Shown: piece after piece, positions 7,301-42,806 of the stretch
How the letters are laid out: each line of letters opens with the position of its first letter
Position numbering within the stretch: position 1 is the stretch's first letter
IMG/VR virus record: IMGVR_UViG_3300037067_004979
Location: 10,733 to 74,732 of that record
Source of the DNA: a virus
Taxonomy: Duplodnaviria > Heunggongvirae > Uroviricota > Caudoviricetes
DNA: 64,000 nucleotides
Direction: 5' to 3' (one strand)
Position numbers and translations under genes: made by a program
Notes under the pieces: model-generated
Told to the model about the DNA's origin: nothing
The model's database searches: none
What the model saw: the letters and a program-made list of their open reading frames with translations, nothing else

Positions 7301-7360
7301 GATGGATATATAGTACCAGCAAAGGGTATCTGGGAAGATATAACGATAAAGCATGGTTAA
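4340..7360 (+). CDS. polyvalent virion protein with C-terminal ADP-ribosyltransferase domain
   Basis: 1006 aa; KVYLKPGEHSPEGTREYQGKRGGRYYL module (nt 4616-4696); HEAT-like repeats (EVRSLAMSRISDPDLI, YVRRVIADRLMDKD); C-terminal LWRGSS ... SISSWT ... FEAEILL = R / S-x-S / E-x-E ART triad. Confidence 0.65.
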   Translation: MNDILSRIDGFLVKAKKHGVSYAEYVNNTSIKSGHDKFNEYTPSTQSKIIKNPAEILDYDLEIGVIDQDDYDNIMAYLKSINSEQAPQPQGQKVYLKPGEHSPEGTREYQGKRGGRYYLATGKTGSTGAEQYDIDADLDRQIREDPVFSDMVKTGGVGESIYRDIVGYLKLDNNQLLETYHLRGDSDISNKILNEIITRRIANGDLSLKIDKTYLIDSRHGLIGYIWSAPKNIKIDFIKSNIDTDNVNIGRVILDILEDNINLPGRDNLYLDLAHGLGSKNLTIMENILHHISSDHISDKIFIRSKYPEVRSLAMSRISDPDLIRRMLNNELGMSLKSPYILERGLSRGDKDLVTSPRYLEACAADDRVSLGRLLNRSGDPLTIPDIYGVYKSVPSGTFISIIWGLNSEEGILDLMRYNDPVLNNLIFNNRNFDNQFISQIIDSDDIDKTSDMWRNILYDTDSEDIISGKLDDPDIQTSRIALSRLIDLGGVNRFGNDNWVLTAYNHTNEDNLDYVISKKSPKLSNLLFDEIFISDKFSVVDKDDVLDYFSRYIPDDAFAEKIVGYMDINSAKVESIFYDFPGPDLALRLRDTENDELRRKIALYLREEDINESYMFDSNLYVRRVIADRLMDKDKIHQMIINTPYDSSNNEGSLYNRMMDKLLWKASSEDKIHKFDELLSNFARDERTYILTSILADAEYDVLSHVINNINNIPDTHLRDIMTNCSADDIIRLSKMERIPKDKILTTRLKNIENLGGVTAINKFRETGEIDTNAMRKDFLDKIRRVDGINIQAEEIHDDDEPVGLDEFLHHHRIHAGLRQGWLSSSNSSKSALLKEAARRLFGGHVFYHDNAIASDKKWDDEVTQYSKDNNIDIGEVESYVRDLYQMTQQLLSIRFPGKEEFTLWRGSSEDEIAEKTGEQDEFYLTPIKIRQNSISSWTLKKNVAASFGNTIFEIKVPKNEIIASYLMYSYSGFEAEILLHGSENRDGYIVPAKGIWEDITIKHG

Positions 7361-8549
7361 TACATATAACATAGATAACAACACAGATAACTCTGATTGG
7401 ATCCAGACAGTCAGGAGGTTAAATGAATTCAGTGATTTCAGAAAAACCTATCTGAGAACTGGCCAGAAACCTCCTAAGGGAAAGGAACTATATCAGGGGC
7501 CAAGAGGTGGGCACTTCTACCTTGCTAATGAGGATGATAAGTCTGAGGTTGAGTTCATGATTGATAATAATCTTATCTCTGAGTTAAGAGATAGTGTATT
7601 ATCCAACTGGTATCCAGTTATAAATAGGGTAGCATCATCTATACCAGATTGGATTACAAGAGATCTGAGAATACACATCAGTACCAATCTATATCTTGAA
7701 TCCAGGAAGATGTCAGAGGCAACAATTACTGGTAGGTATCTAGGGAAGGATGATATAATTATGATCAATCCACTCCTGCTTGTTATTAGTGATGAGGATG
7801 AATTGAGAATAAAGAGTGTTGATTATAATAATGAGATAAGATCCAGTGCATTTATATGTGTGTTAACTCATGAGCTTGGACACAGGGTAGAGAGAATACT
7901 ATACGATCACAGACCAAGATTGGTGTCTGATCTATTTGTTGAATATGAAAATACACCTGGTGCTGTTACTAGATATGGGAAAACCAATAAGAATGAGAGA
8001 TTTGCTGAGGCCTTCCTCTACTACAATCAGAATCCCAGAATTCTAGCAGGGAGAGACCCAACATCATATAAATTTATGAGGATGCACGTGTTTGATAACA
8101 GAGATATTGATAATCCAGTCTTAAAATCTGCTGATACTGGTGATATACCACTAGGGTCTGCCTGGATTGAGGATAGGGGGGCCTCCCTAAAATTCTTTGA
8201 GAAAGTCATTCGTGGAAAGAAGATTAGTGAATCTAAGAGAGATAAATCAAAGGATAATAAATCAGCTAATCCACCATTCATAACAATAGAGCCAGATCAG
8301 GGATTAATGCAGAAGTCTAAGATCTACTCTGAGATGGGTGAGGATAGCACAAAGACCACTGATGGCCCTAGAGGCCAACCACAGGAAGATCCACTTGAAA
8401 ATCCTGAGTATGGTTATGGTAATGCTGTTGGTAGCATGTCTATTGATAAGAGTGAGGGACTAGATTCTGTGAAGAAAAAAATAAGAGGGATAACACACGG
8501 TGATGCGGATGTTAAGAGTAAGCAAGACTATCCTTCAAGAGGAGAATAA
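7353..8549 (+). CDS. polyvalent protein with HExxH zinc-metallopeptidase motif
   Basis: KGKELYQGPRGGHFYLAN module near N-terminus; ICVLTHELGHRVE HExxH motif (nt ~7856-7894); start overlaps upstream stop. Confidence 0.6.
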   Translation: MVNTYNIDNNTDNSDWIQTVRRLNEFSDFRKTYLRTGQKPPKGKELYQGPRGGHFYLANEDDKSEVEFMIDNNLISELRDSVLSNWYPVINRVASSIPDWITRDLRIHISTNLYLESRKMSEATITGRYLGKDDIIMINPLLLVISDEDELRIKSVDYNNEIRSSAFICVLTHELGHRVERILYDHRPRLVSDLFVEYENTPGAVTRYGKTNKNERFAEAFLYYNQNPRILAGRDPTSYKFMRMHVFDNRDIDNPVLKSADTGDIPLGSAWIEDRGASLKFFEKVIRGKKISESKRDKSKDNKSANPPFITIEPDQGLMQKSKIYSEMGEDSTKTTDGPRGQPQEDPLENPEYGYGNAVGSMSIDKSEGLDSVKKKIRGITHGDADVKSKQDYPSRGE

Positions 8550-13058: not shown

Positions 13059-14651
13059 GTGAAAAAGATTCTAAATAGAGTAGAGCAAGAGATTGAGAAC
13101 AGAAATATAGGAGAGGATGAGTTATCTGATATACTATCCTCATTTGAGCCAGCAAAAAATAGACGAATAATTGCAGGGTATGCCTCAGTATCAATTGTTG
13201 ATAGAGAGGGGCATCGAATAAGTATTGCTGCTCTTAAGGATGCTGCCTCAAGATTTATGAAGAGTGGTTATCCCCTTCTAAATGTTTTTCACAGTGATAT
13301 ATCAGTTGGTAAGGTCTTGCCAAGATGGACTGATCCTGAAACAGGTAAGATCTGGGAATCAAGAGTTGATGATAAGGGTTGGTTTGTTGTCTGTGAACTA
13401 AGATCTGACATAGAGATAGCTGATAAGGTTTGGGAAGAGGTTGTTAAGGGTAATCTTAGATCATTCTCCATAGCTGGTTCATCTAAGGCTAAGCATCAGG
13501 CCTATGAGGGTGGCCAACAGTTTACATCAATTGATGAGCTGGATTTGGCAGAAATTACAATTTGTTTACCTGGTGATCAAAAAGTATGGACTAAGTCAGG
13601 TCTTAAAGATATTAAAGACATACAAATTGGTGAGGAAGTTATATCTCATAAAGCTAAATGGAGAAAAGTTACCAAAAAATTTGAAAGGCTAATATCTGAG
13701 AAAATAATTAAGATAACTACTTCAAAGGGATCAGTTATTATAACAAAGAATCATCCTGTCAGAACTTTAATTTATGGTGGACAAAATATTGGAACACATT
13801 ATGAATGGAAAGAAGCTGGTTTTCTTAATGAGGGAGATCTAATATCTTTATTATCATTTAGAGGTGTATGCCCAAGATGTGGTTCTCCGATTTTTATGAC
13901 TAAAGGAAATAGAAATAGAGATTATTGTTCTCTAAAATGTAGATATACTATTGGCAATAGAAGAGGCAAAACATATGCTTCTGGTGATAAAGGAGCTTTG
14001 AAACGTAAAAAGAAAATGGAAGAATTCTATTCTTTTGAAGAAAACAGAAAAAAGATGGGTGCTGGTGGTAGATCAACATGGAATATACGAAAAAATAACC
14101 CAGAAAAATTAAAAGAATGGTTTATGAGATTTAGATCTAAAGATAACTCTAATCATTTTGTGTCTGGAGAAAATCATAAAAAAACTAAACCAGAAAGAGA
14201 GCTAGAGATCATTCTTAAAGAGCTTGGCCTCAGTGAATGGAAGTTTACTGGTGATGGTTCTTATCCTATAGCAGGCAAGTTTCCTGATTTTTATGATGGT
14301 GATAAAAAGATAATCGAGGTATTTGGTGGATATTGGCATAAAAAGGAAGAAGAACAAGAAAGAATAGAACATTTCAGGAAACATGGTTATGATTGTATCA
14401 TTTTATGGGATCATCAATTTGGTGATAAGGCTAGCATTAGAGATACAGTTAGTCAATTTAGCAGAAATAAATTATATAAGATATTAAAGATAGAAGAAAT
14501 GGAATATTCTGGTCTTGTATATAATTTAGAGGTAGAAGAGGATAATTCATTCTGCACAAATATCTGTTTGGTACATAATTGTGAAACTCCAGTCAATCAG
14601 ATGAGTAAGTTTGACATACTATGGAATCCTGGAAGGGTGGATGTTTTTTGA
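13059..14651 (+). CDS. HK97-family prohead protease (S78/U35) interrupted by an intein
   Basis: GTG start behind AGAGGAG RBS; N-extein IIAGYASVSIVDREGHRI...PLLNVFHSD...RSFSIAGSS matches HK97 gp4-type protease (His, Ser); intein begins CLPGDQKVWT and ends LVHN|CETPV. Confidence 0.8.
   Translation: MKKILNRVEQEIENRNIGEDELSDILSSFEPAKNRRIIAGYASVSIVDREGHRISIAALKDAASRFMKSGYPLLNVFHSDISVGKVLPRWTDPETGKIWESRVDDKGWFVVCELRSDIEIADKVWEEVVKGNLRSFSIAGSSKAKHQAYEGGQQFTSIDELDLAEITICLPGDQKVWTKSGLKDIKDIQIGEEVISHKAKWRKVTKKFERLISEKIIKITTSKGSVIITKNHPVRTLIYGGQNIGTHYEWKEAGFLNEGDLISLLSFRGVCPRCGSPIFMTKGNRNRDYCSLKCRYTIGNRRGKTYASGDKGALKRKKKMEEFYSFEENRKKMGAGGRSTWNIRKNNPEKLKEWFMRFRSKDNSNHFVSGENHKKTKPERELEIILKELGLSEWKFTGDGSYPIAGKFPDFYDGDKKIIEVFGGYWHKKEEEQERIEHFRKHGYDCIILWDHQFGDKASIRDTVSQFSRNKLYKILKIEEMEYSGLVYNLEVEEDNSFCTNICLVHNCETPVNQMSKFDILWNPGRVDVF
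13563..14579 (+). mobile_element. intein (339 aa) with zinc ribbon and Vsr/DUF559-like homing endonuclease domain
   Basis: Block A CLPGDQKVW after extein AEITI; block G VHN followed by Cys; internal CPRCGSPIF...YCSLKCR zinc ribbon and GDGSYPIAGKFPDFYDGDKKIIEVFGGYWH...HGYDCIILWDHQF nuclease paralogous to ORF 10023. Confidence 0.65.
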
Positions 14652-15811: not shown

Positions 15812-16084
15812 ATGTTTAGTATATTTATTATGATTATTTTTTCTATCATGGTAATTTGTTCAATTCCTTTTATAGTGACTGGTTTTATCAAAATTCATGA
15901 GTGTAATAAGGACTTAAAGAGAAATGAAGAGGTATATGATTACAGAGTAAGGATGATAAAAAAAGATTATGAGGAGTTTCTTCTTCTGCCAAGTTATGAT
16001 AAGATGTTGGAGGATAGAGACACACCCGTAGATGGTTTTGCCATAAGGGAAAGAATGCTGCATAGGATGAGAAAGAGTGTATGA
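15812..16084 (+). CDS. small protein with N-terminal TM helix, paralog of 15602
   Basis: LLLPSYDKMLEDRDTPVDGFAIRERMLHRMRKSV parallels previous ORF. Confidence 0.4.
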   Translation: MFSIFIMIIFSIMVICSIPFIVTGFIKIHECNKDLKRNEEVYDYRVRMIKKDYEEFLLLPSYDKMLEDRDTPVDGFAIRERMLHRMRKSV

Positions 16085-16368
16085 GTATCTGTGAAGATAT
16101 CCACTGCCCAGCCTGTTATTCAGTGAGTGGAGACCATGCAACTTATGAAATAGTACCAAAGTATACCTGTGGGACAATCTGGTGTGTGGGTGAGTGTATT
16201 ACTGGTGAGGCTGGTAACAGACTACAGTGCTGTTATCTATGTAGAAAGAGAGGCAGGTGTGATGAGTATGCACTGGTATATAAGGGTAGTGGACTAGAGG
16301 GTATCATGAGAACAAGAGCTATCAGAAAACACATAAGGAGATACTATAGAGATAATGAGTATATGTGA
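16081..16368 (+). CDS. Cys-rich small protein (CC-x-L-C subfamily)
   Basis: CPACYS...CGTIWCVGEC...CCYLCRKRGRC. Confidence 0.5.
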   Translation: MSICEDIHCPACYSVSGDHATYEIVPKYTCGTIWCVGECITGEAGNRLQCCYLCRKRGRCDEYALVYKGSGLEGIMRTRAIRKHIRRYYRDNEYM

Positions 16369-16621
16369 TGATATTAGGTGTCCCTGTGGTTATGATGTGC
16401 ATGGTATCTCTAGGTATGATCTTCACCCAAAATATGTAGATGATACATTACGATGTGATGAGTCTTGCCCCGATTCAAAGGATCATTTGTATGCATGCTG
16501 TTATCTATGTGATAGCAGAGATAAATGCAGTGTATTTACAGCTACCTTTGGTGGTCTTGAGGGTATAATAAGAGAAAAAAAGATCCGAGATCATCTGAAG
16601 GAACACTATGGTAAGTCCTGA
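16355..16621 (+). CDS. Cys-rich small protein (CC-x-L-C subfamily), tandem paralog
   Basis: MSICDDIRCPCGY...CCYLCDSRDKC; same N-terminus MSIC(E/D)DI as previous. Confidence 0.5.
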   Translation: MSICDDIRCPCGYDVHGISRYDLHPKYVDDTLRCDESCPDSKDHLYACCYLCDSRDKCSVFTATFGGLEGIIREKKIRDHLKEHYGKS

Positions 16622-16694: not shown

Positions 16695-16721
16695 AATAGA
16701 TGTTTGTTGTATAATGTAATT

Positions 16722-26686: not shown

Positions 26687-26760
26687 AATTCCCAATCACA
26701 ACAAGATATTTGGGTAGGACAATAACAGTCCTACCCATTTTCTTTGTCTGTTGAGAACTA

Positions 26761-26778
26761 GATGTTTTGTGATATGAT
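26761..26778 (+). promoter_or_regulatory. variant of conserved promoter motif GATGTTTTGTGATATGAT
   Basis: Degenerate copy followed by ACGGAGGATTAG RBS. Confidence 0.4.
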
Positions 26779-26814
26779 ATATACATCTTAATAAAAAAAC
26801 GGAGGATTAGATAA

Positions 26815-27015
26815 ATGGCAAAGAAAGTACAGACACAGGAAACTGAGACCAAGACAAAGGCCATCAAGGTAGATATAACACAGATGGTAATAACTCACGC
26901 CTACCAGAGAAATTACAAAACTGGTTCAACTGGGTTCTTTGGCCAGGGAATGGATCCACAGACTGGAAAGAAGTATCAGATTCTCGGTTGTGTTGAGGTC
27001 AAACCGAAAGCATAA
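26815..27015 (+). CDS. small basic protein
   Basis: 66 aa, own promoter and terminator. Confidence 0.5.
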   Translation: MAKKVQTQETETKTKAIKVDITQMVITHAYQRNYKTGSTGFFGQGMDPQTGKKYQILGCVEVKPKA

Positions 27016-27035
27016 ATCAATTCAATTCATAATTT

Positions 27036-27068
27036 GGGGGAGTTGAAAGATATTCCCCCTTTTTATTG
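27036..27068 (+). terminator. rho-independent terminator
   Basis: GGGGGA-loop-TCCCCC followed by TTTTTATTGTT. Confidence 0.6.
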
Positions 27069-27069
27069 T

Positions 27070-28290
27070 TATTAAAAACTAGTCATATATGAACATCATA
27101 TTATATGAAGCTAATCATCCATCAATATAGACTCCAATCCAAATCAAATACGCAATATAAATGATGCCACAATAGCCAAGAGACACACACAAATACAAAA
27201 CCAATATAAACCTATATCAATAAAATGTGGGGCAAAAGAAAGATAGAACAAATGTATTAAACCTAGATACATGACAATATGATCAAATAAGAAGAGTACG
27301 ATTGAGACAGAATCAAACCAATTCAAAGCCAATTCAAAGTTGCTACCTCATCTCTCTGCCAACAGGTTCATATAAGACTATTTTTATCCAGGCGGACGGA
27401 GAAAGTACACTTTAGAACAAATGTATTATAATATTACCAGGTAGCAAATCGTATCCAAAACACGATCAATTATACAACAAATTTGCGCTCAGAATGACCA
27501 AGAATGATGCCGAAGTCATTTATTAATGATAGTATATTGATAAACACTTGTTCTATTAATCTTGAGCAAACGGGGCATTAAAAAGAACAAATACGTATGG
27601 ATGACTAGAACACTTGTATTATTCATATATGACTGTTTCTGAGACATCTTTATTGTAAAGCTGGAATTGGAATCAAATTCTATTCACGCCGTCAATGATA
27701 TAATATCAACAAATATGACTTTGTATTTGGTTAGAGAGTTCATTTATGACCATCAAAAGTTACTCAATTTGATCGTAATATTGCCAATTCCTAATTCAAG
27801 TATGTTTCTTTGACGCCACGAAGCTCAAGGATGATGCCGAGACAAGTTATGCGCTAGATTCTATTGGTGGATGAAATATATACTTATTTGCGCTCCAGAA
27901 GACCCTGATTAATAGCACAATTGTGTTGTCATATATGACTATTTGATCGTATCCTTATGTAAAGAAGCACACTTGTACTAGTTTGTTATAGAACAAATGG
28001 GCTAATTAGAACAGATGTGCTGTGTATCATTATGTAATGTAATTAACTAACTATCATATATGACATACATAATAACAAATATGGTTGGTTAATTAATACA
28101 TATATGACTATCTCTATGATATATGCTATATGACCATCATATATGACTGTCTTCCATGATTGTCTCATAACCCCCCATTATGTCAAATGCTTACTATATG
28201 ATATTCATATGTGACTATTGACCTGCAAGTCAGGGACTTACTTGAAAATTTTTTGACCTGAATTTATATCTGGGAACAATATATGATATC
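27070..28290. repeat. 1.2-kb non-coding divergent region with iterated motifs (TCATATATGACT x>=8; ACACTTGTA; AGAACAAATG)
   Basis: No ORF >62 aa; copies at ~27084, 27624, 27942, 28055, 28103, 28130, 28139, 28205; candidate origin/regulatory hub. Confidence 0.55.
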
Positions 28291-28544
28291 TATTGATGGT
28301 ACTCCTGTCGACTGTATTTTAGATATCTATGATACTTCTTGATGAATATTATGTGTGACAGTGGTTCAACACCCTCTAGTTTACCATCACATTTCTTTAT
28401 ATTTTTACATAGCATACAACACTTACACATATTTCTGTTGTGTATTTCCCAGACCACACAGCTAACAATACCATTCTCCATTCTATACCTACCATACATA
28501 CACCCCACTGATAGACAGTCTCTTGGATCGATTGGATTATTCAC
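28290..28544 (-). CDS. Cys-rich small protein (CC-M-L-C subfamily)
   Basis: CLSVGCMYG...CKCCMLCKNIKKC. Confidence 0.5.
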   Translation of the reverse strand: MNNPIDPRDCLSVGCMYGRYRMENGIVSCVVWEIHNRNMCKCCMLCKNIKKCDGKLEGVEPLSHIIFIKKYHRYLKYSRQEYHQ

Positions 28545-28557
28545 TGTGATCTACTCA

Positions 28558-28818
28558 TCATGTTAATTTAGATCTACTGTATCTTCTATACTTGAGATAT
28601 TTTTGGGAGAACATTAGACGTGCTAGGGGTTCTACCATTGCTAGGATGTTATGTTCTCTATCACATTCCCCTATATTCCTACATATCAGACAGCACTTGC
28701 ATTGATCTTTTTCACTTGTATTCCATATCTCACAGCTAAAAATACTGTTATTCTTTCTTGTTTTTCCATACTTGCATCCAACTGAGATGCAATCATCTAT
28801 ACTAATTGGGCTCTTCAT
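28558..28818 (-). CDS. Cys-rich small protein, tandem paralog
   Basis: CISVGCKYG...CKCCLICRNIGEC. Confidence 0.5.
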   Translation of the reverse strand: MKSPISIDDCISVGCKYGKTRKNNSIFSCEIWNTSEKDQCKCCLICRNIGECDREHNILAMVEPLARLMFSQKYLKYRRYSRSKLT

Positions 28819-29098
28819 CTCTAACCCCCAGATATTTTTGTCTAAAGACTAGTAGCATCAGTGGATCAACATCACTCATTTTCCCAACAACATTCCTGTG
28901 CCAGTTGCATGTGTCATCACACAGCAAACAGCACCCAGTTATACTGTTCATTCTATTAGAAATAGTGGGGGGATAGACTTTAAATCCATCACCTCTTCTA
29001 CAAACCTTTCCACAGTCATGTAAAGTTTTCATACTTGGTATTAACTCACTGTGTGGGCATCTGAGAGATTCACAGTCCTCTCTTCTTATAAATCTCAT
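28802..29098 (-). CDS. Cys-rich small protein
   Basis: CESLRCPHS...CGKVC...CCLLCDDTC. Confidence 0.45.
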   Translation of the reverse strand: MRFIRREDCESLRCPHSELIPSMKTLHDCGKVCRRGDGFKVYPPTISNRMNSITGCCLLCDDTCNWHRNVVGKMSDVDPLMLLVFRQKYLGVRDEEPN

Positions 29099-29882: not shown

Positions 29883-29957
29883 TGGTACCCCCGGCAGGAG
29901 TTGAACCTGCATTCTCTGTTTAGAAGACAGATGCTCTATCCACTGAGCTACGGAGGC
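29883..29957 (-). tRNA. tRNA-Arg (anticodon UCU), CCA encoded
   Basis: Reverse complement GCCTCCG-TA-GCTC-AGTGGATA-GAGC-A-TCTGT-CTTCTAA-ACAGA-GAAT-GCAGG-TTCAACT-CCTGC-CGGGGGT-A-CCA. Confidence 0.8.
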
Positions 29958-29962
29958 ACACA

Positions 29963-30214
29963 CTATCTTGACTCCAACTTTCCGAGCATTATTACTCTTC
30001 TGTATGTCTCATCATTTGGCAGTATTTGATATGAGTAATATAGATCGATTGCTGAGATAAACTTCCTTGCCTCATTACCATGAATAGCCCAACAGTCATT
30101 ACACATAAATATTGTTTGATCATCCCTACAGTATTTACCACAGACTGGGCAATCTTCTATTATCCCATAATAGTAGCATCTTCTATATATGTGTTGCAGT
30201 ATTGAGATATCCAT
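29963..30214 (-). CDS. small zinc-ribbon protein (MML tail)
   Basis: CPVCGKYCRDDQTIFMCNDCW; C-term RRVIMLGKLESR; close paralog of 29420. Confidence 0.5.
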   Translation of the reverse strand: MDISILQHIYRRCYYYGIIEDCPVCGKYCRDDQTIFMCNDCWAIHGNEARKFISAIDLYYSYQILPNDETYRRVIMLGKLESR

Positions 30215-30221
30215 GTATTTA

Positions 30222-30584
30222 CTAGATCCTCTTTCTGACAGGCCTTGTCTCCCTTACTGTTTTAGAGACCACCTTATTGGTTTCCTTAAATAAACCGGAT
30301 TGATAAAATCTGATTTCCTCACCACAAAATGGGCAGAATTTAATTTTCCTGGTTGAGGATTCATCATCAAAATAGGCATGACCAAGATATATCTCAATGA
30401 TTGGCTTGGGGTCTTCCATGGTGTCATAATAGGCACCAAAAGATACATGATGATCTGAATAGGCTTCCTCTAATTCATCACAGCAAAACTCCCTGGTCTT
30501 ATACTCTTCTAGGTAGGGTAGTTCCCTCTTGGATTTCCCTCCATCCATAACCTCTCTGATAACTCTATTGTATTCAAAAATCAT
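30222..30584 (-). CDS. hypothetical protein with C-terminal zinc ribbon
   Basis: CPFCGEE; RBS GAGGTGA; preceded by conserved promoter motif. Confidence 0.5.
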   Translation of the reverse strand: MIFEYNRVIREVMDGGKSKRELPYLEEYKTREFCCDELEEAYSDHHVSFGAYYDTMEDPKPIIEIYLGHAYFDDESSTRKIKFCPFCGEEIRFYQSGLFKETNKVVSKTVRETRPVRKRI

Positions 30585-30602
30585 ATATCACCTCATGTTA
30601 TT

Positions 30603-30619
30603 ATTATATCAAAAACATC
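30603..30619 (-). promoter_or_regulatory. conserved promoter motif (minus strand) GATGTTTTTGATATAAT
   Basis: Reverse complement of + strand attatatcaaaaacatc; followed by GAGGTGA RBS and ATG of 30584. Confidence 0.5.
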
Positions 30620-30855
30620 TATTCACTTTTTCTCAGTTGGTTGAGCATGGCTAGCTGTATTAGTTCACTCTCAGATAAATTTTGTAGAGTGGTGCACTCT
30701 TCCAGTACATGATAATTATTTTTTATGACAAGCATGAATTTTCTCCAGCAATCATCACAGGCAAATACTCTTGGCATCTTAATACCACAGTATGGGCACT
30801 CAGTGTGATTAATGGGGCTTTTGCTAAGCATTTCACTTATTATTTCCCTGTACAT
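30619..30855 (-). CDS. small zinc-ribbon protein (MML tail)
   Basis: CPYCGIKMPRVFACDDCW; C-term LAMLNQLRKSE. Confidence 0.45.
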   Translation of the reverse strand: MYREIISEMLSKSPINHTECPYCGIKMPRVFACDDCWRKFMLVIKNNYHVLEECTTLQNLSESELIQLAMLNQLRKSE

Positions 30856-30878
30856 CAGCTATCTTAATCCATCTTTAC

Positions 30879-31130
30879 TCATTGTGTAAAGTTACTTATT
30901 ATTGCTTCCTGTATTGTGTAATAGGTTGGATTACCCTTTTCCAATTTTATTTGACTATCATAAGAATCAAGATGATATGTATGAGCTGATTCATACCTTA
31001 CGAAGGCTCTCTCAAGCCAGATTATTCTCCCATCATTTAAGTTGTGTGGGAGAAAACAAAACACCGTATAACCAACTTGTAATCTCATTACCTTTTTGTT
31101 TATATCTTCTTTACATTTACCAATTATCAT
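30879..31130 (-). CDS. hypothetical small protein
   Basis: 83 aa. Confidence 0.4.
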   Translation of the reverse strand: MIIGKCKEDINKKVMRLQVGYTVFCFLPHNLNDGRIIWLERAFVRYESAHTYHLDSYDSQIKLEKGNPTYYTIQEAIISNFTQ

Positions 31131-31402
31131 TTTAATATCCCTATCTTTATAAACATCTTAATTTTCTGTATGAGTGATTGTGATTTACCTTCATATTGAC
31201 TTTTCTTGCACACTATAAAAAACATAAATTTTGTGTCTTTATCAACCTCTCCGGAAAAAAAACAGTAATCTGTGTCATTATCTATGTGACATTTAACACA
31301 ACAGATATACTTTTTACTTTGTCCACATAAGTGAGTTCGACAATGTAACATATTTTTTTGTGGACAAATAATTTGACATTGTTTTTCTGTGGGTACAAAC
31401 AT
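31127..31402 (-). CDS. Cys-rich small protein
   Basis: CQIICPQ...CRTHLCG...CCVKCH. Confidence 0.45.
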   Translation of the reverse strand: MFVPTEKQCQIICPQKNMLHCRTHLCGQSKKYICCVKCHIDNDTDYCFFSGEVDKDTKFMFFIVCKKSQYEGKSQSLIQKIKMFIKIGILK

Positions 31403-31428
31403 ATTATATAACCTCTAGTTAATATGAG

Positions 31429-31515
31429 TGGCGGAGTCGGTGAGATTTGAACTCACGATGCTGTTAGCATGACCGCTTTCAAGACGGCTCCGATAAACCA
31501 CTCCGGCACGACTCC
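31429..31515 (-). tRNA. tRNA-Ser (anticodon UGA), type II, CCA encoded
   Basis: Reverse complement GGAGTCG...GCCGT-CTTGAAA-GCGGT, long variable arm CATGCTAACAGCATC, T-arm GTGAG-TTCAAAT-CTCAC, CGACTCC-G-CCA. Confidence 0.75.
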
Positions 31516-31590
31516 TGGTAGGGAGTGCAAGATTCAAACTTGCGTCTCCGAGATATAAGCTCGGTATCCTAATCACTGAACTAACTCCCC
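31516..31590 (-). tRNA. candidate tRNA-Ile (anticodon UAU), CCA encoded; weak D-stem
   Basis: Reverse complement GGGGAGT..CCGAG-CTTATAT-CTCGG..GCAAG-TTTGAAT-CTTGC-ACTCCCT-A-CCA; anticodon loop has U33 and A37; D-stem has 2 G-U pairs. Confidence 0.55.
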
Positions 31591-33529: not shown

Positions 33530-33536
33530 ATATTAC

Positions 33537-33552
33537 ATTATATCAAAAACAT
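33537..33552 (-). promoter_or_regulatory. conserved promoter motif (minus strand) ATGTTTTTGATATAAT
   Basis: -10 ends 7 nt before ATG 33529: near-leaderless, or true start is downstream. Confidence 0.4.
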
Positions 33553-33665
33553 TAAATTGTCTGTAATATTTTAGAAGTTTGAGTTTCTTTAATATAATAA
33601 AGAGTAGGAGACGGGTCGATTCCGCCTCTATTTTTTATTATTAGGAGGTATCAGAGAAAGAACCT

Positions 33666-34473: not shown

Positions 34474-35847
34474 GTGGCAGATATTTCATTAGGTGAATAT
34501 TTAGCGCAAGCACAGAGATCCATGGGTGGAGGCCAATTCGGAAGAGTTAGTGGTCCTCTTAGTGGATATCTCTTTGGTCCGGATTTTTTTAGGAAACAGA
34601 CCTATCTTCAGGTAGCGGATACATTTACTGCTACATATGGTAAAAAGGTTTGGGATGCCCTAAATAACAAAACTGTAACATTCAATGCAATTAAAAAAGT
34701 TGATTGGGGTCCTACGGTTGGTTGGCGTCTTAGGACAGATCGTGGTAAGACTGGTGCTTCTTCTGAAACCATAACAAAGCGTTCTCGTCCTGTTACAGAG
34801 ACAGGGTCTCTTCCAACTATAGATGTATCAAATTATGTTGGTGTCTATAGCTATCCAAAGAACATAGTGTCTACCTTTGGTGTGAGCTTGAAATCTCAGG
34901 CTGTGTCAGCACTTGAAGGCGGCATTGGGAACCAATTTGCTGTGGAGCAGGAGGGTGCATCTCGTGACCACATCAAAGAAATAAACCAGGAAATAATGGC
35001 TTCTGGTGGATATCTGATGTCTGGTGGAAGTTCTGATTATGGTATAGTTGGTACTGCTACTGCTACCTTTGCTCTGGCTGATCACTTTAAGATCGGTGAT
35101 GGAGTGGCAAAATCTGGTACTGATACATCCAGGACAGTTACATATGTTACCACAGCTGATGGACATGTAAATGCAACATCTCTCAGTGGTGCAGATGGTT
35201 ATACTGTTTATGTAAAATCAAGGGCTGGTCTTACTAGCATTGATGATATCGTAGCAGATGATTCTCAGAAGATTGGCAATGTAACAACCCCCATAGATGT
35301 ATATAATCTTACCACAAGAACAGCTGGTGGGTATGCTGCTGCAGCCTACTGCAGTGATAATGCAGGTTCTGGCAGAGATCTTACTCTAAAGTTAGTTGAT
35401 CAGTGCTTTGAGAATATACGTCAGAATGGTGGTGAACCAAAACTTATCATAACTGGTCTTGATCAGTATGATAACTTTAACCAGCTTTTACAGGCTCAAC
35501 AGAGATTTGTAGATGTGACTGATTACATTGTTGGTGCTGGGGATGAGAGGACCTACCCTGGAACAAGAGCAGGCTTCCAGCTTGCTACCTACAGGGGTGT
35601 TCCCATTCTTCCTGATCCTGATACTCCAAAATCAATGAGTTCAGCAGATGCCTTACTTGGTAGTAATTTATATGTACTGGATACTGATTATCTGGAAACT
35701 GCTGTCATGTATCCTACTCAGTACATTGAAAATAGAGACTACTTTGCGGCAAATGCTCTTGTGATAAGAGGCATGTTTATCACAATGGCAGAAACCAGGG
35801 CTCTTAGGTTTGATGTACATGCAAAGCTGTCTGACTTAAATACATAA
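34474..35847 (+). CDS. putative major capsid protein
   Basis: 457 aa after scaffold-like gene, RBS AGGAGGTGAG, followed by strong terminator; family not provable by eye. Confidence 0.5.
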   Translation: MADISLGEYLAQAQRSMGGGQFGRVSGPLSGYLFGPDFFRKQTYLQVADTFTATYGKKVWDALNNKTVTFNAIKKVDWGPTVGWRLRTDRGKTGASSETITKRSRPVTETGSLPTIDVSNYVGVYSYPKNIVSTFGVSLKSQAVSALEGGIGNQFAVEQEGASRDHIKEINQEIMASGGYLMSGGSSDYGIVGTATATFALADHFKIGDGVAKSGTDTSRTVTYVTTADGHVNATSLSGADGYTVYVKSRAGLTSIDDIVADDSQKIGNVTTPIDVYNLTTRTAGGYAAAAYCSDNAGSGRDLTLKLVDQCFENIRQNGGEPKLIITGLDQYDNFNQLLQAQQRFVDVTDYIVGAGDERTYPGTRAGFQLATYRGVPILPDPDTPKSMSSADALLGSNLYVLDTDYLETAVMYPTQYIENRDYFAANALVIRGMFITMAETRALRFDVHAKLSDLNT

Positions 35848-39633: not shown

Positions 39634-41679
39634 TTGAAACTCATTTGGCATAGTACCGCAAATTTTGTGGGGACTGGTTATGGTGTAATAACCAGAGACC
39701 TTGTGCATAGAATAAAGAGTCTTGGTCATGATGTAGATATCTACACAAAGCACTTTCTAGGTGGAAACATAGTTGTTGAGGGTGTTAATAACTATGATGG
39801 TACTCAGATGGATGTAATTAATCATAAACTTGAGAGTGAGGGGTACGACTACATTATTACCTTTGGGGATGCTTGGGTGTATCCAGATAGAGTAAATTAC
39901 TACTTTACAAAAAACAAGTGGGTGTCATCTATGTTTTTGGATGTGCAATTTATGCATCCAAGAATGGTAGAGGCCATGAATCAGTGTCAATACCAGTTAA
40001 CTCTTACAAAGCACGGTAAGAGTGAGTTGGAGAGATCTGGATTTAAGCCACTCTATGCACCACTTGGTGTTGACATGAAGAAATTTAGGCCAGATGAGGA
40101 GCTACGTAATTCATTTAGGAAGAAGTATGGTTGGGAGGATAAATTTGTTTATGGTTTTTTAGGTATCAACTATGGTACAGATAGAAAAAATATCATAAAT
40201 CTAATAAAGGCCTTCCAGGCAATAAACAAGAAGCATCCAGAAACAATCCTATACTTGCATACATCTTTGAATGGTGCACCAACAAGTGGTTTACCAATAG
40301 ACTGGATACTTCAATCATGTGGATTTCCAGTAGATAATACTGGTCCAGTTAGGTTTTGTAACCAGGATGACTACAGGACCTGGGTTATATCTCAAGATGA
40401 ACTTGTTGGTCTCTATAATGCATTTGATGTATTTGCATTCCCAACACAGGGTGAGGGATTTGGTATGCCAATTGTTGAGGCTCAGGCTTGTGGTTGTCCG
40501 ATCATAACAACTGATACCACAAGTGGTGGGGAGCTATTTAAGAGTGGTTGGTTAATTCCAATTGATGATGATGATTATGAGTTCTCCACACATAAGTCAT
40601 GGTTTGCCAAGGTTAGATTAAATAAGATTTATGAATATATGGAGAAATCCTATAATGATGTTAAAGCTGATACTGATAATATTCTAAGAAAAAATGCAAG
40701 AAATAATATACTTGAGTATGATATAGATACAGTATTTAATAAGTATTGGGTACCAATGCTAAACTTCCTTGAAGAGGCCAAGAAAACCCCTGTTAAGTTA
40801 CCAAACTGGACAAAGGAGATATATAGTGTTTGTGGTGGTAGAATATATCCTGACGCAGGGGATTGTGGGGCCTATCACTCATGTGATAGACAGTGTGATA
40901 AATTAAATCTATTTAGATTTCCATGTGAACCTCTTACAGAGGGTAGAAGTTTAATGATGAGAAGTTATCCATTATTCCCAGATAGAGATATGAAGGACAT
41001 GCTTATAGATTCTAGATGTCCAATGTCTAAGTGGGTAGCTGAGAGATTTACAGATGAGGTAAATGCTGCATGGGATAGAGTTATTGAGTACCCATCTCTA
41101 AGAAGATTCTATAAGGATAAGTGTGATGAGGGATTCTTTGATAACTTTGTTACCTCTAAATTGAAAGATAGAAACCTTAATTTTGATTCTGAGTATTCAA
41201 GGATCTTTTCTCTGCCATGGACAACCATATTTCAGGTAAGTGAAGAGGTTATAAATTTCTTTAGTGATTGCAAGCAGGTTCTTGATATTGGTTCTGGGGA
41301 AGGCAAGATAGTTAGAGCTCTTAATGATAGAGGAATAAATACAAAGGGTCTTGAGATAAACAGGGATAGAGTTGATAATAATCTAATTCTTTATGGTAAT
41401 GTTACAGATATACCATATGGGGATAAGACAATAGATGGCATAATTTGTATTGATACACTAGAGCATATCAGTGATCCTATCAAGGCCTTAAGAGAGATAT
41501 TTAGGGTAGCTAGAAAACGTGTTTTAATACAGGTTACATCTCTTAATTCGTGGGCTTTCAGAGAGGATCCTACACACGTTGTAAAGTGGCAGGATTACAG
41601 ATGGTGGAGAGAGATAGCTGAATTTGGTAGGATTATCAAGAAGGACGGCCAGAGGTTCTATGTGGAGGTAGTAGACTAA
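39634..41679 (+). CDS. GT4 glycosyltransferase fused to C-terminal class I SAM methyltransferase
   Basis: TTG start after AAGGAGGT; EGFGMPIVEAQACGCPIITTD (GT4 E-x7-E); Cys-rich middle; VLDIGSGEGKIV...D methyltransferase motif I. Confidence 0.65.
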   Translation: MKLIWHSTANFVGTGYGVITRDLVHRIKSLGHDVDIYTKHFLGGNIVVEGVNNYDGTQMDVINHKLESEGYDYIITFGDAWVYPDRVNYYFTKNKWVSSMFLDVQFMHPRMVEAMNQCQYQLTLTKHGKSELERSGFKPLYAPLGVDMKKFRPDEELRNSFRKKYGWEDKFVYGFLGINYGTDRKNIINLIKAFQAINKKHPETILYLHTSLNGAPTSGLPIDWILQSCGFPVDNTGPVRFCNQDDYRTWVISQDELVGLYNAFDVFAFPTQGEGFGMPIVEAQACGCPIITTDTTSGGELFKSGWLIPIDDDDYEFSTHKSWFAKVRLNKIYEYMEKSYNDVKADTDNILRKNARNNILEYDIDTVFNKYWVPMLNFLEEAKKTPVKLPNWTKEIYSVCGGRIYPDAGDCGAYHSCDRQCDKLNLFRFPCEPLTEGRSLMMRSYPLFPDRDMKDMLIDSRCPMSKWVAERFTDEVNAAWDRVIEYPSLRRFYKDKCDEGFFDNFVTSKLKDRNLNFDSEYSRIFSLPWTTIFQVSEEVINFFSDCKQVLDIGSGEGKIVRALNDRGINTKGLEINRDRVDNNLILYGNVTDIPYGDKTIDGIICIDTLEHISDPIKALREIFRVARKRVLIQVTSLNSWAFREDPTHVVKWQDYRWWREIAEFGRIIKKDGQRFYVEVVD

Positions 41680-42806
41680 TGAAGATAATGTGGTCTTTTA
41701 TATCTCCATTAACACCATTTGGGTATGGTGTTGTTAGTAAGAACATGGTTCCAAGAATGATGGCAGATGGGCATGAGGTCATTGTTTGTGCATCACAGTA
41801 TGTTGGTCATCCAATGCAATATAATGGCATGAATATGATTTCCTTTCTTGATTGGCATGTGGTTAGGAATCTGTGTGATCACTTTGGTGTGGATTATATC
41901 TTTGATCTGTATAACTATAAGTTACCAGAGCAGCCACACTATAGAGACTGGGTAATGTGTGCAGCAATGGATTTTCCCTTTATGTATGATAGATATGCTG
42001 GACACATAAATGAGTTGGCTTCTCATGTGATAGCACCATCTAAACATAACATTAAGGAAATAAAGAGATTTGGGTTTAATCCTACATATGCTCCCTGGGG
42101 AGTTGATACAAAGTTATATAGACAGGATATGGATGCCAGAAAGAGAAAGAGAGATTCACTAAAGATAGATGATGATGTATTCATTGTTGGTACTGTGGGG
42201 GCAAACATATTTGATGATAGAAAAAATCTATTCAATACAATAAGAGCATTTAATAAGTTAGCCTCAGTTCATCCGGATGTGGCTCTATATATACACTGTT
42301 ATTTACATTCATCTTTACCATTGCTTAGATTTATTCAAACCAGTGGTTTTTCAGATAGAATTTACTATCCAGATCAGAGAAAGATAGAGCTGATGTCTAT
42401 ACAGGATGAGGAGATGGTAGATACATATAATGCAATGGATGTATTTGTCTGTGCTTCAAAGGGTGAGTCCTTTTGTTTACCTCTTGTTGAGGCACAATCC
42501 TGTGGTGTACCAGCCATAGTGACTGATACAACTGCCTTACCAGAGATGCTATATGGTGGATGGAAAATACCAGTTGATGAGGACGACTATGAATGGGCAT
42601 ACTTTGGTGGATGGTGGCCTAAGGTAAGGGCACAAAGTATATATGAACAGATGGAAATAGCTTATCAGGAGTGGAAAACTGGGACCATACAGTGTGAATC
42701 AGAAAGAGCTGAGCAGATCAGAACAGAGTTTGATTGGGATGTTGTCTATGATAAGCATTGGAAGCCTCTTTTAAAGGATCTGGAGAGTAAAAAATGCACC
42801 TTATAG
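41679..42806 (+). CDS. GT4 glycosyltransferase
   Basis: GESFCLPLVEAQSCGVPAIVTD; paralog of N-domain of previous. Confidence 0.65.
   Translation: MKIMWSFISPLTPFGYGVVSKNMVPRMMADGHEVIVCASQYVGHPMQYNGMNMISFLDWHVVRNLCDHFGVDYIFDLYNYKLPEQPHYRDWVMCAAMDFPFMYDRYAGHINELASHVIAPSKHNIKEIKRFGFNPTYAPWGVDTKLYRQDMDARKRKRDSLKIDDDVFIVGTVGANIFDDRKNLFNTIRAFNKLASVHPDVALYIHCYLHSSLPLLRFIQTSGFSDRIYYPDQRKIELMSIQDEEMVDTYNAMDVFVCASKGESFCLPLVEAQSCGVPAIVTDTTALPEMLYGGWKIPVDEDDYEWAYFGGWWPKVRAQSIYEQMEIAYQEWKTGTIQCESERAEQIRTEFDWDVVYDKHWKPLLKDLESKKCTL

What the first reader, a model, noticed from the sequence alone, without database searches (positions are those of the whole stretch)
27070..28290. 1.2-kb ORF-free region packed with iterated motifs where the two gene blocks diverge
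The region contains at least 8 copies of TCATATATGACT(A/G)T (at ~27084, 27624, 27942, 28055, 28103, 28130, 28139, 28205). It also repeats ACACTTGTA(T/C) and AGAACAAATG words, in an AT-rich context. It is flanked by a terminator on the left and leftward-reading (minus-strand) genes on the right. The spacing is irregular, so this is not CRISPR. It could be an origin of replication with iterons, a cluster of operator sites for a phage regulator, or non-coding RNA loci.
Basis: seen in the sequence. Interest (0 to 1): 0.6.

Follow-up and report, generated by a model that had tools for sequence, protein, structure and literature searches.

The report
Phage non-coding array of palindromic sites
A 1.27-kb gene-free stretch in an uncultivated ~106-kb phage holds about nine copies of one 14-bp palindrome and eight of a second; it looks like a docking platform for DNA-binding proteins, most likely a replication-origin-type site, which is a familiar kind of phage feature whose exact job cannot be fixed from sequence alone.

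Summary
Window 27016-28289 is the only stretch of 500 bp or more in 64 kb that has no ORF of 75 aa or more. It stays closed under any single stop-codon recoding.

It holds two motif families that are almost absent elsewhere:
- Motif A is AGTCATATATGACT. Its 10-bp core occurs exactly 5 times and with one mismatch 4 times.
- Motif B is TAGAACAnnTGTAtTA, with 8 copies.

In 500 shuffles no 10-mer reached the observed copy number. The two gene blocks converge here; they do not diverge.

The region is built from diverged repeats, roughly 60% alike, in which the motif cores stay exact. It also has a 22-bp unit inverted at the two edges and a 154-bp imperfect palindrome.

I found no Rfam match, no convincing RNA structure, no copy of the phage's own early promoter, no DnaA boxes and no recognisable DNA-binding or replication gene nearby. 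I found no homologous region anywhere. The only other copies are identical, so conservation cannot be tested.

Best reading: a cis-acting protein-binding array, most likely origin-like (about 0.35). Rivals are an operator or outward-promoter cluster, a T5 "Repeat Region 3"-like end or packaging site, and decayed duplicated DNA. Interest is modest.

The parts
27016..28289 (.). ORF-free region, 1274 bp and about 32% GC, between two converging early gene blocks.
   Evidence: No gene is called here in two public assemblies.
27036..27059 (+). Intrinsic terminator closing the plus-strand block: 8-bp stem with 5 G-C pairs, followed by TTTTTATT.
27080..27101 (+). Left-edge 22-bp unit TAGTCATATATGAACATCATAT. 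It combines a motif A core (27083-27092, exact, extended flank on the minus strand) with a weaker half-site 16 bp away.
27100..27340 (+). Strand-asymmetric A+C-rich tract (AT skew up to +0.55, GC skew down to -0.54). It has 3 copies of CAATATA(A/G)A and a tandem 11-mer, CCAATTCAAAG x2, at 27318-27339.
27244..27259 (+). Motif B copy, TAGAACAAATGTATTA. An identical copy lies at 27413-27428.
27368..27383 (+). Motif A copy with one core mismatch, TCATATAAGACTATTT.
27413..27428 (+). Motif B copy, TAGAACAAATGTATTA.
27541..27556 (-). Motif B copy on the minus strand (ATAGAACAAGTGTTTA). A weaker B-like copy lies at 27583-27598 on the plus strand.
27600..27660 (+). Composite B-A module 1: B at 27606-27621, then A at 27623-27638 (TCATATATGACTGTTT, exact), then TTATTGTAAAG.
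   Evidence: 74% identity over 61 nt to module 2, E = 5e-5.
27696..27708 (.). Near-palindrome TGATATAATATCA. It reads as an extended -10 (TGnTATAAT-like) on both strands but lacks the T-tract of the phage's own promoters. An A-like half-site (ACAAATATGACT, 27709-27720) sits at the predicted plus-strand start.
   Evidence: There is no PWM hit above 10 bits..
27907..27964 (+). Composite B-A module 2: B-like TAGCACAATTGTGTTG at 27913-27928, then A at 27929-27944 (TCATATATGACTATTT, exact), then CTTATGTAAAG.
27920..28073 (.). Imperfect 154-bp palindrome. The outer 19-bp arms carry the A cores at 27929 and 28054. Three B copies (27965, 27989, 28007) lie around the centre.
   Evidence: E = 2e-5; DNA fold, z = -1.8.
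28054..28217 (+). Dense right-hand cluster of motif A sites in the most AT-rich part of the region (25-26% GC). Cores start at 28054 (exact), 28098 (1 mismatch), 28137 (exact) and 28205 (1 mismatch). Half-sites start at 28124 and 28192. Centre-to-centre spacings are 44, 26, 13, 55 and 13 bp. It includes two inverted copies of the 22-bp edge unit, at 28128-28148 and 28196-28217.
26770..27015 (+). Left neighbour: a self-contained unit with an early promoter (TG at 26770), a GGAGGA ribosome-binding site and a 66-aa lysine-rich ORFan (26815-27015). It is a candidate binding protein by position only.
   Evidence: No homologue or family found. The three-strand beta model has pLDDT 65 and no fold match.
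28290..28544 (-). Right neighbour: the last gene of the minus block, an 84-aa Cys-rich protein. It is 45% identical to the next gene (28558-28818), so it is a real gene and sets the right boundary.
   Evidence: It is not called in the public assemblies.

Best explanation
The region is a cis-acting DNA element, not a gene and not an RNA locus. It is an array of binding sites for one or two sequence-specific, probably dimeric, DNA-binding proteins.

- Motif A is the 14-bp palindrome AGTCATATATGACT, with a conserved asymmetric flank ACT(A/G)T(C/T)T.
- Motif B is the 16-bp imperfect palindrome TAGAACAnnTGTAtTA.

**Inferred mechanism:** the proteins load cooperatively on the dense, AT-rich right-hand cluster (28054-28217). 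They bridge to the scattered single sites and to the inverted 22-bp unit at the left edge. This forms a looped nucleoprotein complex. Its most likely purpose is to mark and open a phage replication origin, in the way lambda O protein acts on its dyad-symmetric ori repeats.

**Shown:** there is no coding capacity, the motifs are real and confined to this region, the cores are kept exact inside diverged repeats, and RNA and promoter signals are absent.

**Inferred:** that proteins bind here, which proteins they are, and that the outcome is replication initiation.
For: - It is the only ORF-free gap in 64 kb of an otherwise tightly packed genome. No ORF appears under any single stop recoding.
- Two dyad-symmetric motif families are enriched 44-fold or more and are essentially confined to the region. 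No shuffle out of 500 reaches the observed counts.
- The region is made of old duplications that now align at about 60-74% identity, while the 10-16-bp motif cores remain exact. This points to selection on the sites themselves.
- Higher-order symmetry is present. A 22-bp unit sits at the left edge and is inverted twice at the right edge. There is also a 154-bp imperfect palindrome.
- Four cores and two half-sites lie within 164 bp, in the lowest-GC part of the region, 25-26%.
- There is no Rfam family and no general RNA-structure signal. There is no match to the phage's early-promoter matrix and no terminator inside. The DNA is therefore probably transcriptionally quiet. The putative origin of phage K is described in the same way: a silent non-coding stretch with direct repeats (PMC11598898).
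- From general knowledge: every phage needs at least one unique cis site for replication. ORF-free stretches rich in repeats are where lactococcal and lambdoid phage origins were found.
Against: - The region lies where transcription units converge. Origins more often sit at divergence points or inside replication modules.
- No replication or recognisable DNA-binding family was found in the neighbours or in 43 early ORFs. Any replication genes must lie in the roughly 42 kb of the genome outside the window.
- There are no DnaA boxes.
- Site spacing is irregular and not in helical phase.
- The region is not the most AT-rich part of the window.
- The GC-skew flips are fully explained by gene orientation.
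- Distant relatives (major capsid protein 48-81% identical) show no comparable array within 10 kb of their capsid gene.
- The only other copies of the region are 99.98-100% identical, so conservation cannot be assessed.
Confidence: 0.35

Rival explanations
1. Operator and promoter cluster. A and B are operators of phage regulators that control weak promoters inside the region. These include outward-facing promoters at both edges that would send antisense RNA into the two converging early arms, as a shut-off switch.
For: - Palindromes of 14-16 bp are typical operators.
- Three extended -10-like elements lie in the region: 27696 (+), 27708 (-) and 28077 (-). Two of them have an A or A-like site 4-5 bp downstream, at the predicted start.
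- The 22-bp units read as TATA(A/T)(T/G)-N4-7-TCATATATGA and point outward at both edges.
Against: - -10-like elements are not enriched: 3 seen against about 1.2 expected from the window-wide density.
- None has the TAGATG-T6 context of the nine real early promoters, and no PWM hit exceeds 10 bits.
- There are no genes to regulate, because both flanks are 3' ends.
- The TATATG 'hexamers' are simply half-sites of motif A.
Confidence: 0.2
2. Genome-end, packaging or DNA-entry control region. This would be analogous to the 1.2-kb untranslated Repeat Region 3 of phage T5 at the inner border of its terminal repeat, or to a pac/cos or terminal-repeat boundary.
For: - The gross anatomy matches T5 Repeat Region 3: about 1.2 kb, untranslated, with nested direct repeats, inverted repeats and palindromes, lying beside a block of small early genes (bioRxiv 10.1101/866236).
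- The phage resembles T5 in scale and content: about 106 kb, tail tape-measure-like genes, HNH endonucleases, and relatives carrying 25-28 tRNA genes.
Against: - There are no DnaA boxes, which are the conserved hallmark of the T5 region.
- There is no sequence similarity to any deposited phage.
- No terminase gene was recognised anywhere in the window.
- Three independent assemblies run straight through the region.
Confidence: 0.15
3. No present function. The region would be the decayed product of tandem duplications of an intergenic segment, or a nest of small palindromic mobile elements (MITE-like, with 22-bp terminal inverted repeats flanked by TA), sitting in a hypervariable accessory region.
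For: - Repeat units of roughly 280-420 bp are detectable.
- A 20/22 inverted repeat lies at 27080-27101 and 28196-28217, with TA on both outer sides.
- The flanking genes are ORFans.
- Relatives lack the region.
Against: - The cores stay exact while the surrounding repeat sequence has drifted to about 60% identity.
- There are no other copies in the window, in IMG/VR or in 185,579 species genomes.
- The TA flanks are part of the palindrome itself.
- 1.27 kb of junk is unusual in a genome with no other gap of 500 bp or more.
Confidence: 0.15
4. Polar barrier at the convergence point. Oriented A sites, bound by a protein, would stop replication forks or RNA polymerase coming from either arm, like Tus/Ter or RTP/Ter fork traps or mycobacteriophage 'stoperators'.
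For: - The region sits exactly where the two arms converge.
- The minus arm has no intrinsic terminator.
- The extended motif is asymmetric. One copy at the left edge faces one way and six copies face the other way.
Against: - Nothing of this kind is known in phages.
- The six co-oriented sites are spread over the whole region rather than forming two opposed groups.
- Motif B is left unexplained.
Confidence: 0.05
5. One or several non-coding RNA genes.
For: - The segment 27335-27455 folds better than shuffles (z = -2.2 to -2.8), closed by a 9-bp stem, TTGCTACCT/AGGTAGCAA.
- The left part has strongly strand-asymmetric composition.
Against: - There is no Rfam match.
- All other 120-nt windows give z between -2.5 and +2.6, with the minus strand often less structured than shuffles.
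- There are no promoters of the phage type and no terminators inside.
- A 9-bp inverted repeat within 120 nt is about what chance gives in 1.3 kb.
Confidence: 0.05
6. A plasmid-type partition (centromere) or incompatibility site of a phage that can persist as a plasmid.
For: Clustered short palindromes resemble parS, sopC or parC arrays (general knowledge).
Against: No ParA/ParB, integrase or repressor family was found in any ORF scanned.
Confidence: 0.05

Closest known systems
Iteron-type phage and plasmid origins (lambda ori with four dyad-symmetric O-binding repeats next to an AT-rich stretch; P1 oriR/incA; lactococcal phage ori or 'Per' fragments). Comparison from general knowledge.
   Same: Both are unique, non-coding or cis-acting loci. 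Both have many copies of a short binding motif, here also with dyad symmetry. Both have a dense site cluster in AT-rich DNA, with extra distal copies that could loop or 'handcuff'.
   Different: Spacing here is irregular (13-55 bp in the cluster, 125-285 bp outside it). Two motif families are interleaved. No initiator gene lies in cis, and there are no DnaA boxes. The location is at a convergence of transcription units. Function is untested.
Phage T5 untranslated Repeat Region 3 / injection stop signal region (bioRxiv 10.1101/866236)
   Same: Both are about 1.2 kb of untranslated DNA with nested direct repeats, inverted repeats and palindromes, lying next to a block of small early genes in a large tRNA-carrying siphovirus-like phage.
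   Different: There is no sequence similarity. The paired DnaA boxes that define the T5 region are absent here. A position at a terminal-repeat border is not demonstrable. The T5 region is conserved across 25 relatives, whereas this one has no detectable counterpart.
Putative origin of Staphylococcus phage K (PMC11598898)
   Same: Both are non-coding stretches between transcription units that carry repeated candidate initiator sites. The phage K stretch is transcriptionally silent, and this one is predicted to be.
   Different: Phage K has two 28-bp direct repeats. Here there are about 17 palindromic sites of two kinds. Neither has been tested experimentally.
Multi-site transposon ends (Tn7 TnsB sites, Mu attL/attR). 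Comparison from general knowledge.
   Same: Both have an inverted terminal unit. Sites are sparse on one side and densely packed on the other.
   Different: There is no transposase, no target duplication that can be told apart from the motif, and no other copy anywhere searched. Sites also occur in the middle of the region.

Membership tests
Iteron-type replication origin | Cluster of three or more initiator-binding repeats, closely and regularly spaced. | tested here: inconclusive
   Four cores and two half-sites lie in 28054-28217, but the spacings are 44, 26, 13, 55 and 13 bp, which is neither regular nor helically phased.
Iteron-type replication origin | Adjacent AT-rich unwinding element. 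| tested here: inconclusive
   GC is 25-26% at 28000-28149 and 27050-27149. Other 1-kb stretches of the window are equally or more AT-rich.
Iteron-type replication origin | Initiator or replication genes in cis or nearby. | tested here: not met
   No replication or DNA-binding family was found in the flanking genes or in 43 early ORFs.
Iteron-type replication origin | Host DnaA boxes (only for DnaA-dependent origins). | tested here: not met
   TTWTNCACA has 0 matches in the region, and 5 in the whole window against 9 expected.
Iteron-type replication origin | Supports autonomous or phage-dependent replication. | not testable with these tools
   This needs cloning or marker-frequency data.
CRISPR array | Identical repeats at regular spacing, separated by unique spacers. 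| tested here: not met
   Spacing ranges from 13 to 285 bp, and the repeats are 10-16 bp palindromes.
Phage T5 Repeat Region 3 / iss | About 1.2 kb untranslated region dense in direct repeats, inverted repeats and palindromes. | tested here: met
Phage T5 Repeat Region 3 / iss | Paired DnaA or DnaA-like boxes in conserved inverted repeats. | tested here: not met
Phage T5 Repeat Region 3 / iss | Lies at the inner border of a long terminal repeat. | not testable with these tools
   No read-level data are available. Three assemblies are collinear through the region.
Known non-coding RNA families (Rfam 15) | Covariance-model match. | tested here: not met
   No hit at gathering score. At E <= 5 there are only three sub-threshold hits, all over the left terminator and gene end, and none in the motif array.
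This phage's early promoter class (TAGATG-T6-G-R-TATAAT) | Match to the matrix built from nine promoters. | tested here: not met
   No hit above 10 bits between 27016 and 28289. The real sites score 20-31 bits.
MITE / IS-derived element | Terminal inverted repeats. | tested here: met
   27080-27101 versus 28196-28217, 20 of 22 positions.
MITE / IS-derived element | Target-site duplication and further copies elsewhere. | tested here: not met
   The TA flanks belong to the palindrome itself. There are no further copies in the window, in IMG/VR or in GTDB genomes, which gave 15 isolated chance hits.
Gram-positive LexA (Cheo) box | GAAC-N4-GTTC core. | tested here: not met
   Reading the motif B copies directly, most match 5-6 of the 8 core bases and the best (27541-27556) matches 7 of 8. 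The right half is usually GTAT, GTAC or GTGC.
Plasmid-type centromere (parS/sopC/parC) | Adjacent ParA/ParB-type genes. | tested here: not met
   None found in any ORF scanned.

The most novel reading that the evidence does not exclude
The array could be a phage-encoded polar barrier, or 'trap', placed where two early transcription arms (and possibly two replication forks) meet. Oriented copies of the asymmetric extended A site (TCATATATGACTRTYT; one copy at the left edge facing left, six facing right), bound by an unknown phage protein, would halt polymerases or replisomes. An equally unconventional alternative is a decoy array that titrates a host or rival-phage DNA-binding protein. Neither has a described precedent in tailed phages.
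Probability: 0.06. Interest if true: 0.75.

Novelty: new member of a known kind. Interest (0 to 1): 0.3.

Why it matters
If this is an origin or another essential cis site, it gives a handle on how an uncultivated ~106-kb phage lineage from groundwater and lake sediment replicates or packages its DNA. It also provides two new protein-DNA recognition motifs, each with a partner protein still to be found among the ORFan early genes. In practice it is the one place in this genome where a pull-down or a replication assay could quickly assign a function. By itself, though, a repeat-rich non-coding region in a phage is a familiar feature and does not bear on an open question.

Tried and rejected
- **Missed gene or alternative genetic code.** Rejected. 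Each frame has 25-32 stops, and the longest stretch with one stop recoded is 122 codons.
- **Known RNA family.** None found.
- **Structured RNA array.** A sliding-window z-score scan on both strands was flat apart from 27330-27449.
- **Decayed tRNA array.** Relatives carry 25-28 tRNA genes upstream of the capsid gene. ARAGORN and Rfam find nothing here.
- **Homologous regions for covariation or conservation.**
  - No DNA match in 50,697 phage records.
  - The only other contigs are 99.98-100% identical.
  - The flanking 214-aa and 66-aa proteins have no homologues in 5.8 billion proteins.
  - Capsid-based relatives from IMG/VR and JGI metagenomes lack the motifs and lack any comparable k-mer array.
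- **Motif-pair scan of IMG/VR.** It gave only coincidental hits. The recurring 39-bp spacing came from redundant unrelated contigs.
- **22-bp unit scan of 185,579 species genomes.** 15 isolated hits, at chance level.
- **Walking to the rest of the 106-kb genome.** Failed. The long contig is not retrievable.
- **Binding-protein candidates.** Pfam, PHROGs and NCBIfam found nothing on the neighbours or on 43 early ORFs. There was no PDB sequence match for the 66-aa protein. Single-sequence models were too weak to use: pLDDT 65 and 53, and no fold match with E <= 0.001.
- **GC skew as an origin test.** Uninformative, because it follows gene orientation.
- **DnaA boxes.** None.
- **Inversion of 27-33.5 kb flanked by inverted repeats.** No such repeats found.
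- **Archaeal host with a TATA-box reading of motif A.** The idea came from the capsid's nearest cultured matches being archaeal viruses. Rejected because the distances from promoter to ribosome-binding site to start codon fit a bacterial extended -10 promoter, including one leaderless start 7 nt after the -10.
- **Literature search for the motif.** Nothing relevant.
Full report
**Context**

The window is part of an uncultivated tailed phage.
- It encodes a prohead protease (13059-14651), an HK97-type major capsid protein (34474-35847), tail and tape-measure-like proteins (47-64 kb), HNH endonucleases and four tRNAs.
- The longest contig on record for the flanking ORFans is 106,335 bp.
- Capsid relatives (48-81% amino-acid identity) come from groundwater and lake or sediment metagenomes. 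Many carry 25-28 tRNA genes upstream of the capsid gene.

**Gene layout**
- Plus-strand genes run from 1 to 27015.
- An empty stretch follows.
- Minus-strand genes run from 33529 down to 28290.
- Plus-strand late genes start at 33666.

The two blocks that flank the finding therefore converge on it. The true divergence point is 33530-33665.

A 19-nt promoter motif, TAGATG-T6-G-R-TATAAT, occurs nine times and always in front of genes:
- plus strand: 14649, 14739, 18906, 20339, 21092, 25994, 26770;
- minus strand: 30611, 33545.

Its distances to GGAGGA ribosome-binding sites, and one leaderless ATG 7 nt after the -10, fit a bacterial extended -10 promoter. All nine lie between 14.6 and 33.5 kb. 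That segment therefore looks like an early or accessory region with two converging arms, and the finding sits where the arms meet.

- Positions 27016-28289 hold no credible ORF. Every frame has 25-32 stops, and recoding any single stop opens at most 122 codons.
- Gene callers on two other public assemblies left the region empty.
- It is the only gap of 500 bp or more without an ORF of 75 aa or more in 64 kb.
- The right boundary at 28290 is sound. The ORF at 28290-28544 was not called in the public assemblies, but it is 45% identical to its neighbour at 28558-28818 and belongs to a Cys-rich paralogue family.

Motif A counts:
- Exact CATATATGAC occurs seven times (both strands), all within 27082-28147, and nowhere else in the window.
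- ATATGAC occurs 7 times against 0.07 expected from the rest of the window.
- The palindromic core TCATATATGA with at most one mismatch occurs 9 times inside and 10 times outside (44-fold, p = 4e-11). No 8-, 10- or 12-mer in 500 dinucleotide shuffles reaches the observed count.

It has 8 copies inside the region and 4 outside on both strands.

- The stated 14-mer is exact only three times, at 27623, 27929 and 28137.
- Four more copies have one mismatch.
- Three of the listed coordinates are off by 2-13 bp.

**Anatomy**
- Motif A is a 14-bp palindrome, AGTCATATATGACT. Its right flank is better kept, giving TCATATATGACTRTYT. By that flank, six copies face right (27368, 27623, 27929, 28098, 28137, 28205) and one, at the far left (27083), faces left. 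The copy at 28054 is ambiguous.
- Motif B is an imperfect 16-bp palindrome around ACAnnTGT.
- The motifs sit inside old duplications:
  - A B-A composite module occurs twice, at 27600-27660 and 27907-27964, with 74% identity over 61 nt.
  - 27464-27720 aligns loosely with 27870-28148, at 60% identity.
  - A 22-bp unit, TAGTCAYATATGAAYATCATAT, stands at the left edge (27080-27101) and is inverted twice at the right edge (28128-28148 and 28196-28217).
  - 27920-28073 is a 154-bp imperfect palindrome. Its 19-bp outer arms carry A cores, and three B copies surround its centre.
- The cores are exact while the surrounding repeat sequence has drifted to about 60% identity. This is the main argument that the sites themselves are under selection.
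- The right-hand 164 bp (28054-28217) holds four cores and two half-sites. GC there is the lowest of the region, 25-26% in the 100-bp windows covering 28000-28149. Centre-to-centre spacings are 44, 26, 13, 55 and 13 bp.
- The left 250 bp is an A+C-rich, strongly strand-asymmetric tract with its own small repeats.

**What it is not**
- **Not CRISPR.** The spacing is irregular.
- **Not a known RNA.** There is no Rfam hit at gathering score. At E <= 5 there are only three sub-threshold hits over the left terminator.
- **Not an array of structured RNAs.** Windows of 120 nt on both strands give z-scores between -2.5 and +2.6. The one exception is 27330-27449, which is closed by a 9-bp stem that chance could supply.
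- **No internal transcription signals of the phage's type.** There is no intrinsic terminator inside and no match to the early-promoter matrix. Three extended -10-like elements occur (27696+, 27708-, 28077-), which is about what the window-wide density predicts.
- **No DnaA boxes**.
- **GC skew is uninformative.** It changes sign at about 27 kb and about 33 kb, exactly with gene orientation and with equal size, so it says nothing about replication.

**Comparative evidence.** This is where the analysis stalls.
- No deposited phage matches at the DNA level.
- The two other contigs that carry the region are 100% and 99.98% identical.
- The flanking proteins have no homologues.
- Capsid relatives show neither the motifs nor any comparable cluster of short exact repeats within 10 kb of their capsid gene.
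- Motif-pair and 22-bp-unit scans of IMG/VR and of 185,579 species genomes returned only isolated chance hits.

The element is therefore private to this lineage and sits among ORFans. This weakens any "core function" reading. It also argues against an active mobile element.

**Candidate partners.** No neighbour or early ORF matches a DNA-binding or replication family. The 66-aa lysine-rich gene immediately to the left is a self-contained promoter-gene-terminator unit. It models as a three-strand beta sheet at low confidence, with no significant fold match. The 214-aa neighbour models poorly, with pLDDT 53. Any link between these proteins and the array rests on position alone.

**Interpretation**

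I am fairly confident (about 0.7) that this is a cis-acting array of protein-binding sites rather than coding sequence, RNA genes or junk.

Its purpose is much less certain. I rank an origin-type nucleoprotein site first, at about 0.35. My reasons are:
- it is a unique locus;
- it has two dyad-symmetric site families;
- it has a dense cluster in AT-rich DNA plus distal copies;
- it is predicted to be transcriptionally silent;
- there is precedent, from lambda's dyad-symmetric O-binding repeats (general knowledge) and from phage K's silent non-coding putative origin (PMC11598898).

Against this reading:
- the region lies at a convergence of transcription units;
- there are no nearby replication genes;
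- there are no DnaA boxes;
- the spacing is irregular;
- relatives have no counterpart.

Rivals:
- an operator or outward-promoter cluster (0.2);
- a T5 Repeat-Region-3-like end, packaging or DNA-entry site (0.15). The gross anatomy is strikingly similar, but the DnaA boxes that define the T5 region are absent;
- decayed duplications or a nest of palindromic elements (0.15);
- a polar fork or transcription barrier (0.05);
- non-coding RNA (0.05);
- a plasmid-type centromere (0.05).

**Verdict.** This is a real, statistically solid and structurally elaborate repeat array. It belongs to a familiar class, the repeat-rich non-coding cis region of a large phage, and it has novel motif sequences. 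It is worth a pull-down or replication assay if the phage is ever cultivated or synthesised. It is not surprising to a specialist.

Noticed in passing
window 14649, 14739, 18906, 20339, 21092, 25994, 26770 (+); 30611, 33545 (-); weaker variant at 16707 (+): A 19-nt promoter motif, TAGATG-TTTTTT-G-(A/G)-TATAAT (extended -10 with no -35), precedes genes only between 14.6 and 33.5 kb. This marks that segment as a separate (early or accessory) transcription class inserted between the head-protease and capsid gene blocks. One instance (33545) gives a leaderless start 7 nt after the -10.
   Followed up: partly
window 33590-33665: The first late gene (33666) is preceded by a weaker promoter-like TTTAATATAAT. 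A terminator-like hairpin with a T-run (GGAGACGGGTCGATTCCGCCTC TATTTTTT) follows, then the ribosome-binding site. This layout is reminiscent of antitermination-controlled late operons such as lambda PR'-tR'.
   Followed up: no
window 28290-28544, 28558-28818, 28802-29098 (-); 16081-16368, 16355-16621 (+): A family of small Cys-rich paralogues (C...C...CCxLC...C, with a C-terminal (V/L)E(P/G)(L/I)...(K/D)(Y/H) motif) has no database family. Three of them lie immediately to the right of the repeat array.
   Followed up: partly
window 26711-27059: The 66-aa lysine-rich ORFan (26815-27015) is a fully insulated unit: an upstream terminator (26711-26737), its own promoter (26770), a strong ribosome-binding site and a downstream terminator (27036-27059). 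It has no homologue in 5.8 billion proteins. It is predicted to have a disordered basic N-terminus followed by a three-strand sheet.
   Followed up: partly
loci L001, L007/L074, L061, L069, L071 versus window 29883-31590: Relatives carry arrays of 11-28 tRNA genes directly upstream of the scaffold and capsid genes, all on the capsid strand. This phage has only three tRNAs there (Arg-TCT, Ser-TGA, Ile-TAT), on the opposite strand inside the minus block, plus tRNA-Pro at 16618. The segment may have been inverted and its tRNA set reduced.
   Followed up: partly
window 1716-8549: Three very large consecutive proteins carry toxin-like or enzyme domains: DUF5661 (1716-4343), a DRAT-type ADP-ribosyltransferase domain (4340-7360) and an anthrax-lethal-factor-like metalloprotease domain (7353-8549). 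They lie in the head-morphogenesis block and may be ejected 'polyvalent' proteins.
   Followed up: no
window 34474-35847: The nearest cultured or named matches of the major capsid protein are archaeal viruses: Haloarcula siphoviruses HVTV-1, HCTV-1 and HCTV-5 (about 102-104 kb) and a Methanofastidiosa virus. Identity is only 26-29% over a third to a half of the protein. The promoter and ribosome-binding-site geometry nevertheless points to a bacterial host.
   Followed up: partly
window 27335-27455: A 110-nt segment closed by a perfect 9-bp stem (TTGCTACCT/AGGTAGCAA) folds better than shuffles (z = -2.2 to -2.8 on both strands). It encloses one A-like and one B site. This could be chance or a small structured element.
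   Followed up: partly
window 39634-42806: A fused glycosyltransferase-methyltransferase (681 aa) and a second glycosyltransferase sit inside the structural gene block. They may modify the virion or DNA.
   Followed up: no
L007 (IMG/VR, 100,207 bp) versus L074 (JGI Ga0209668_10000008, 105,988 bp): The IMG/VR record of a relative equals the JGI contig minus its first 5,780 bp. This could reflect trimming of a long terminal redundancy. It would bear on whether this phage group has long terminal repeats.
   Followed up: no
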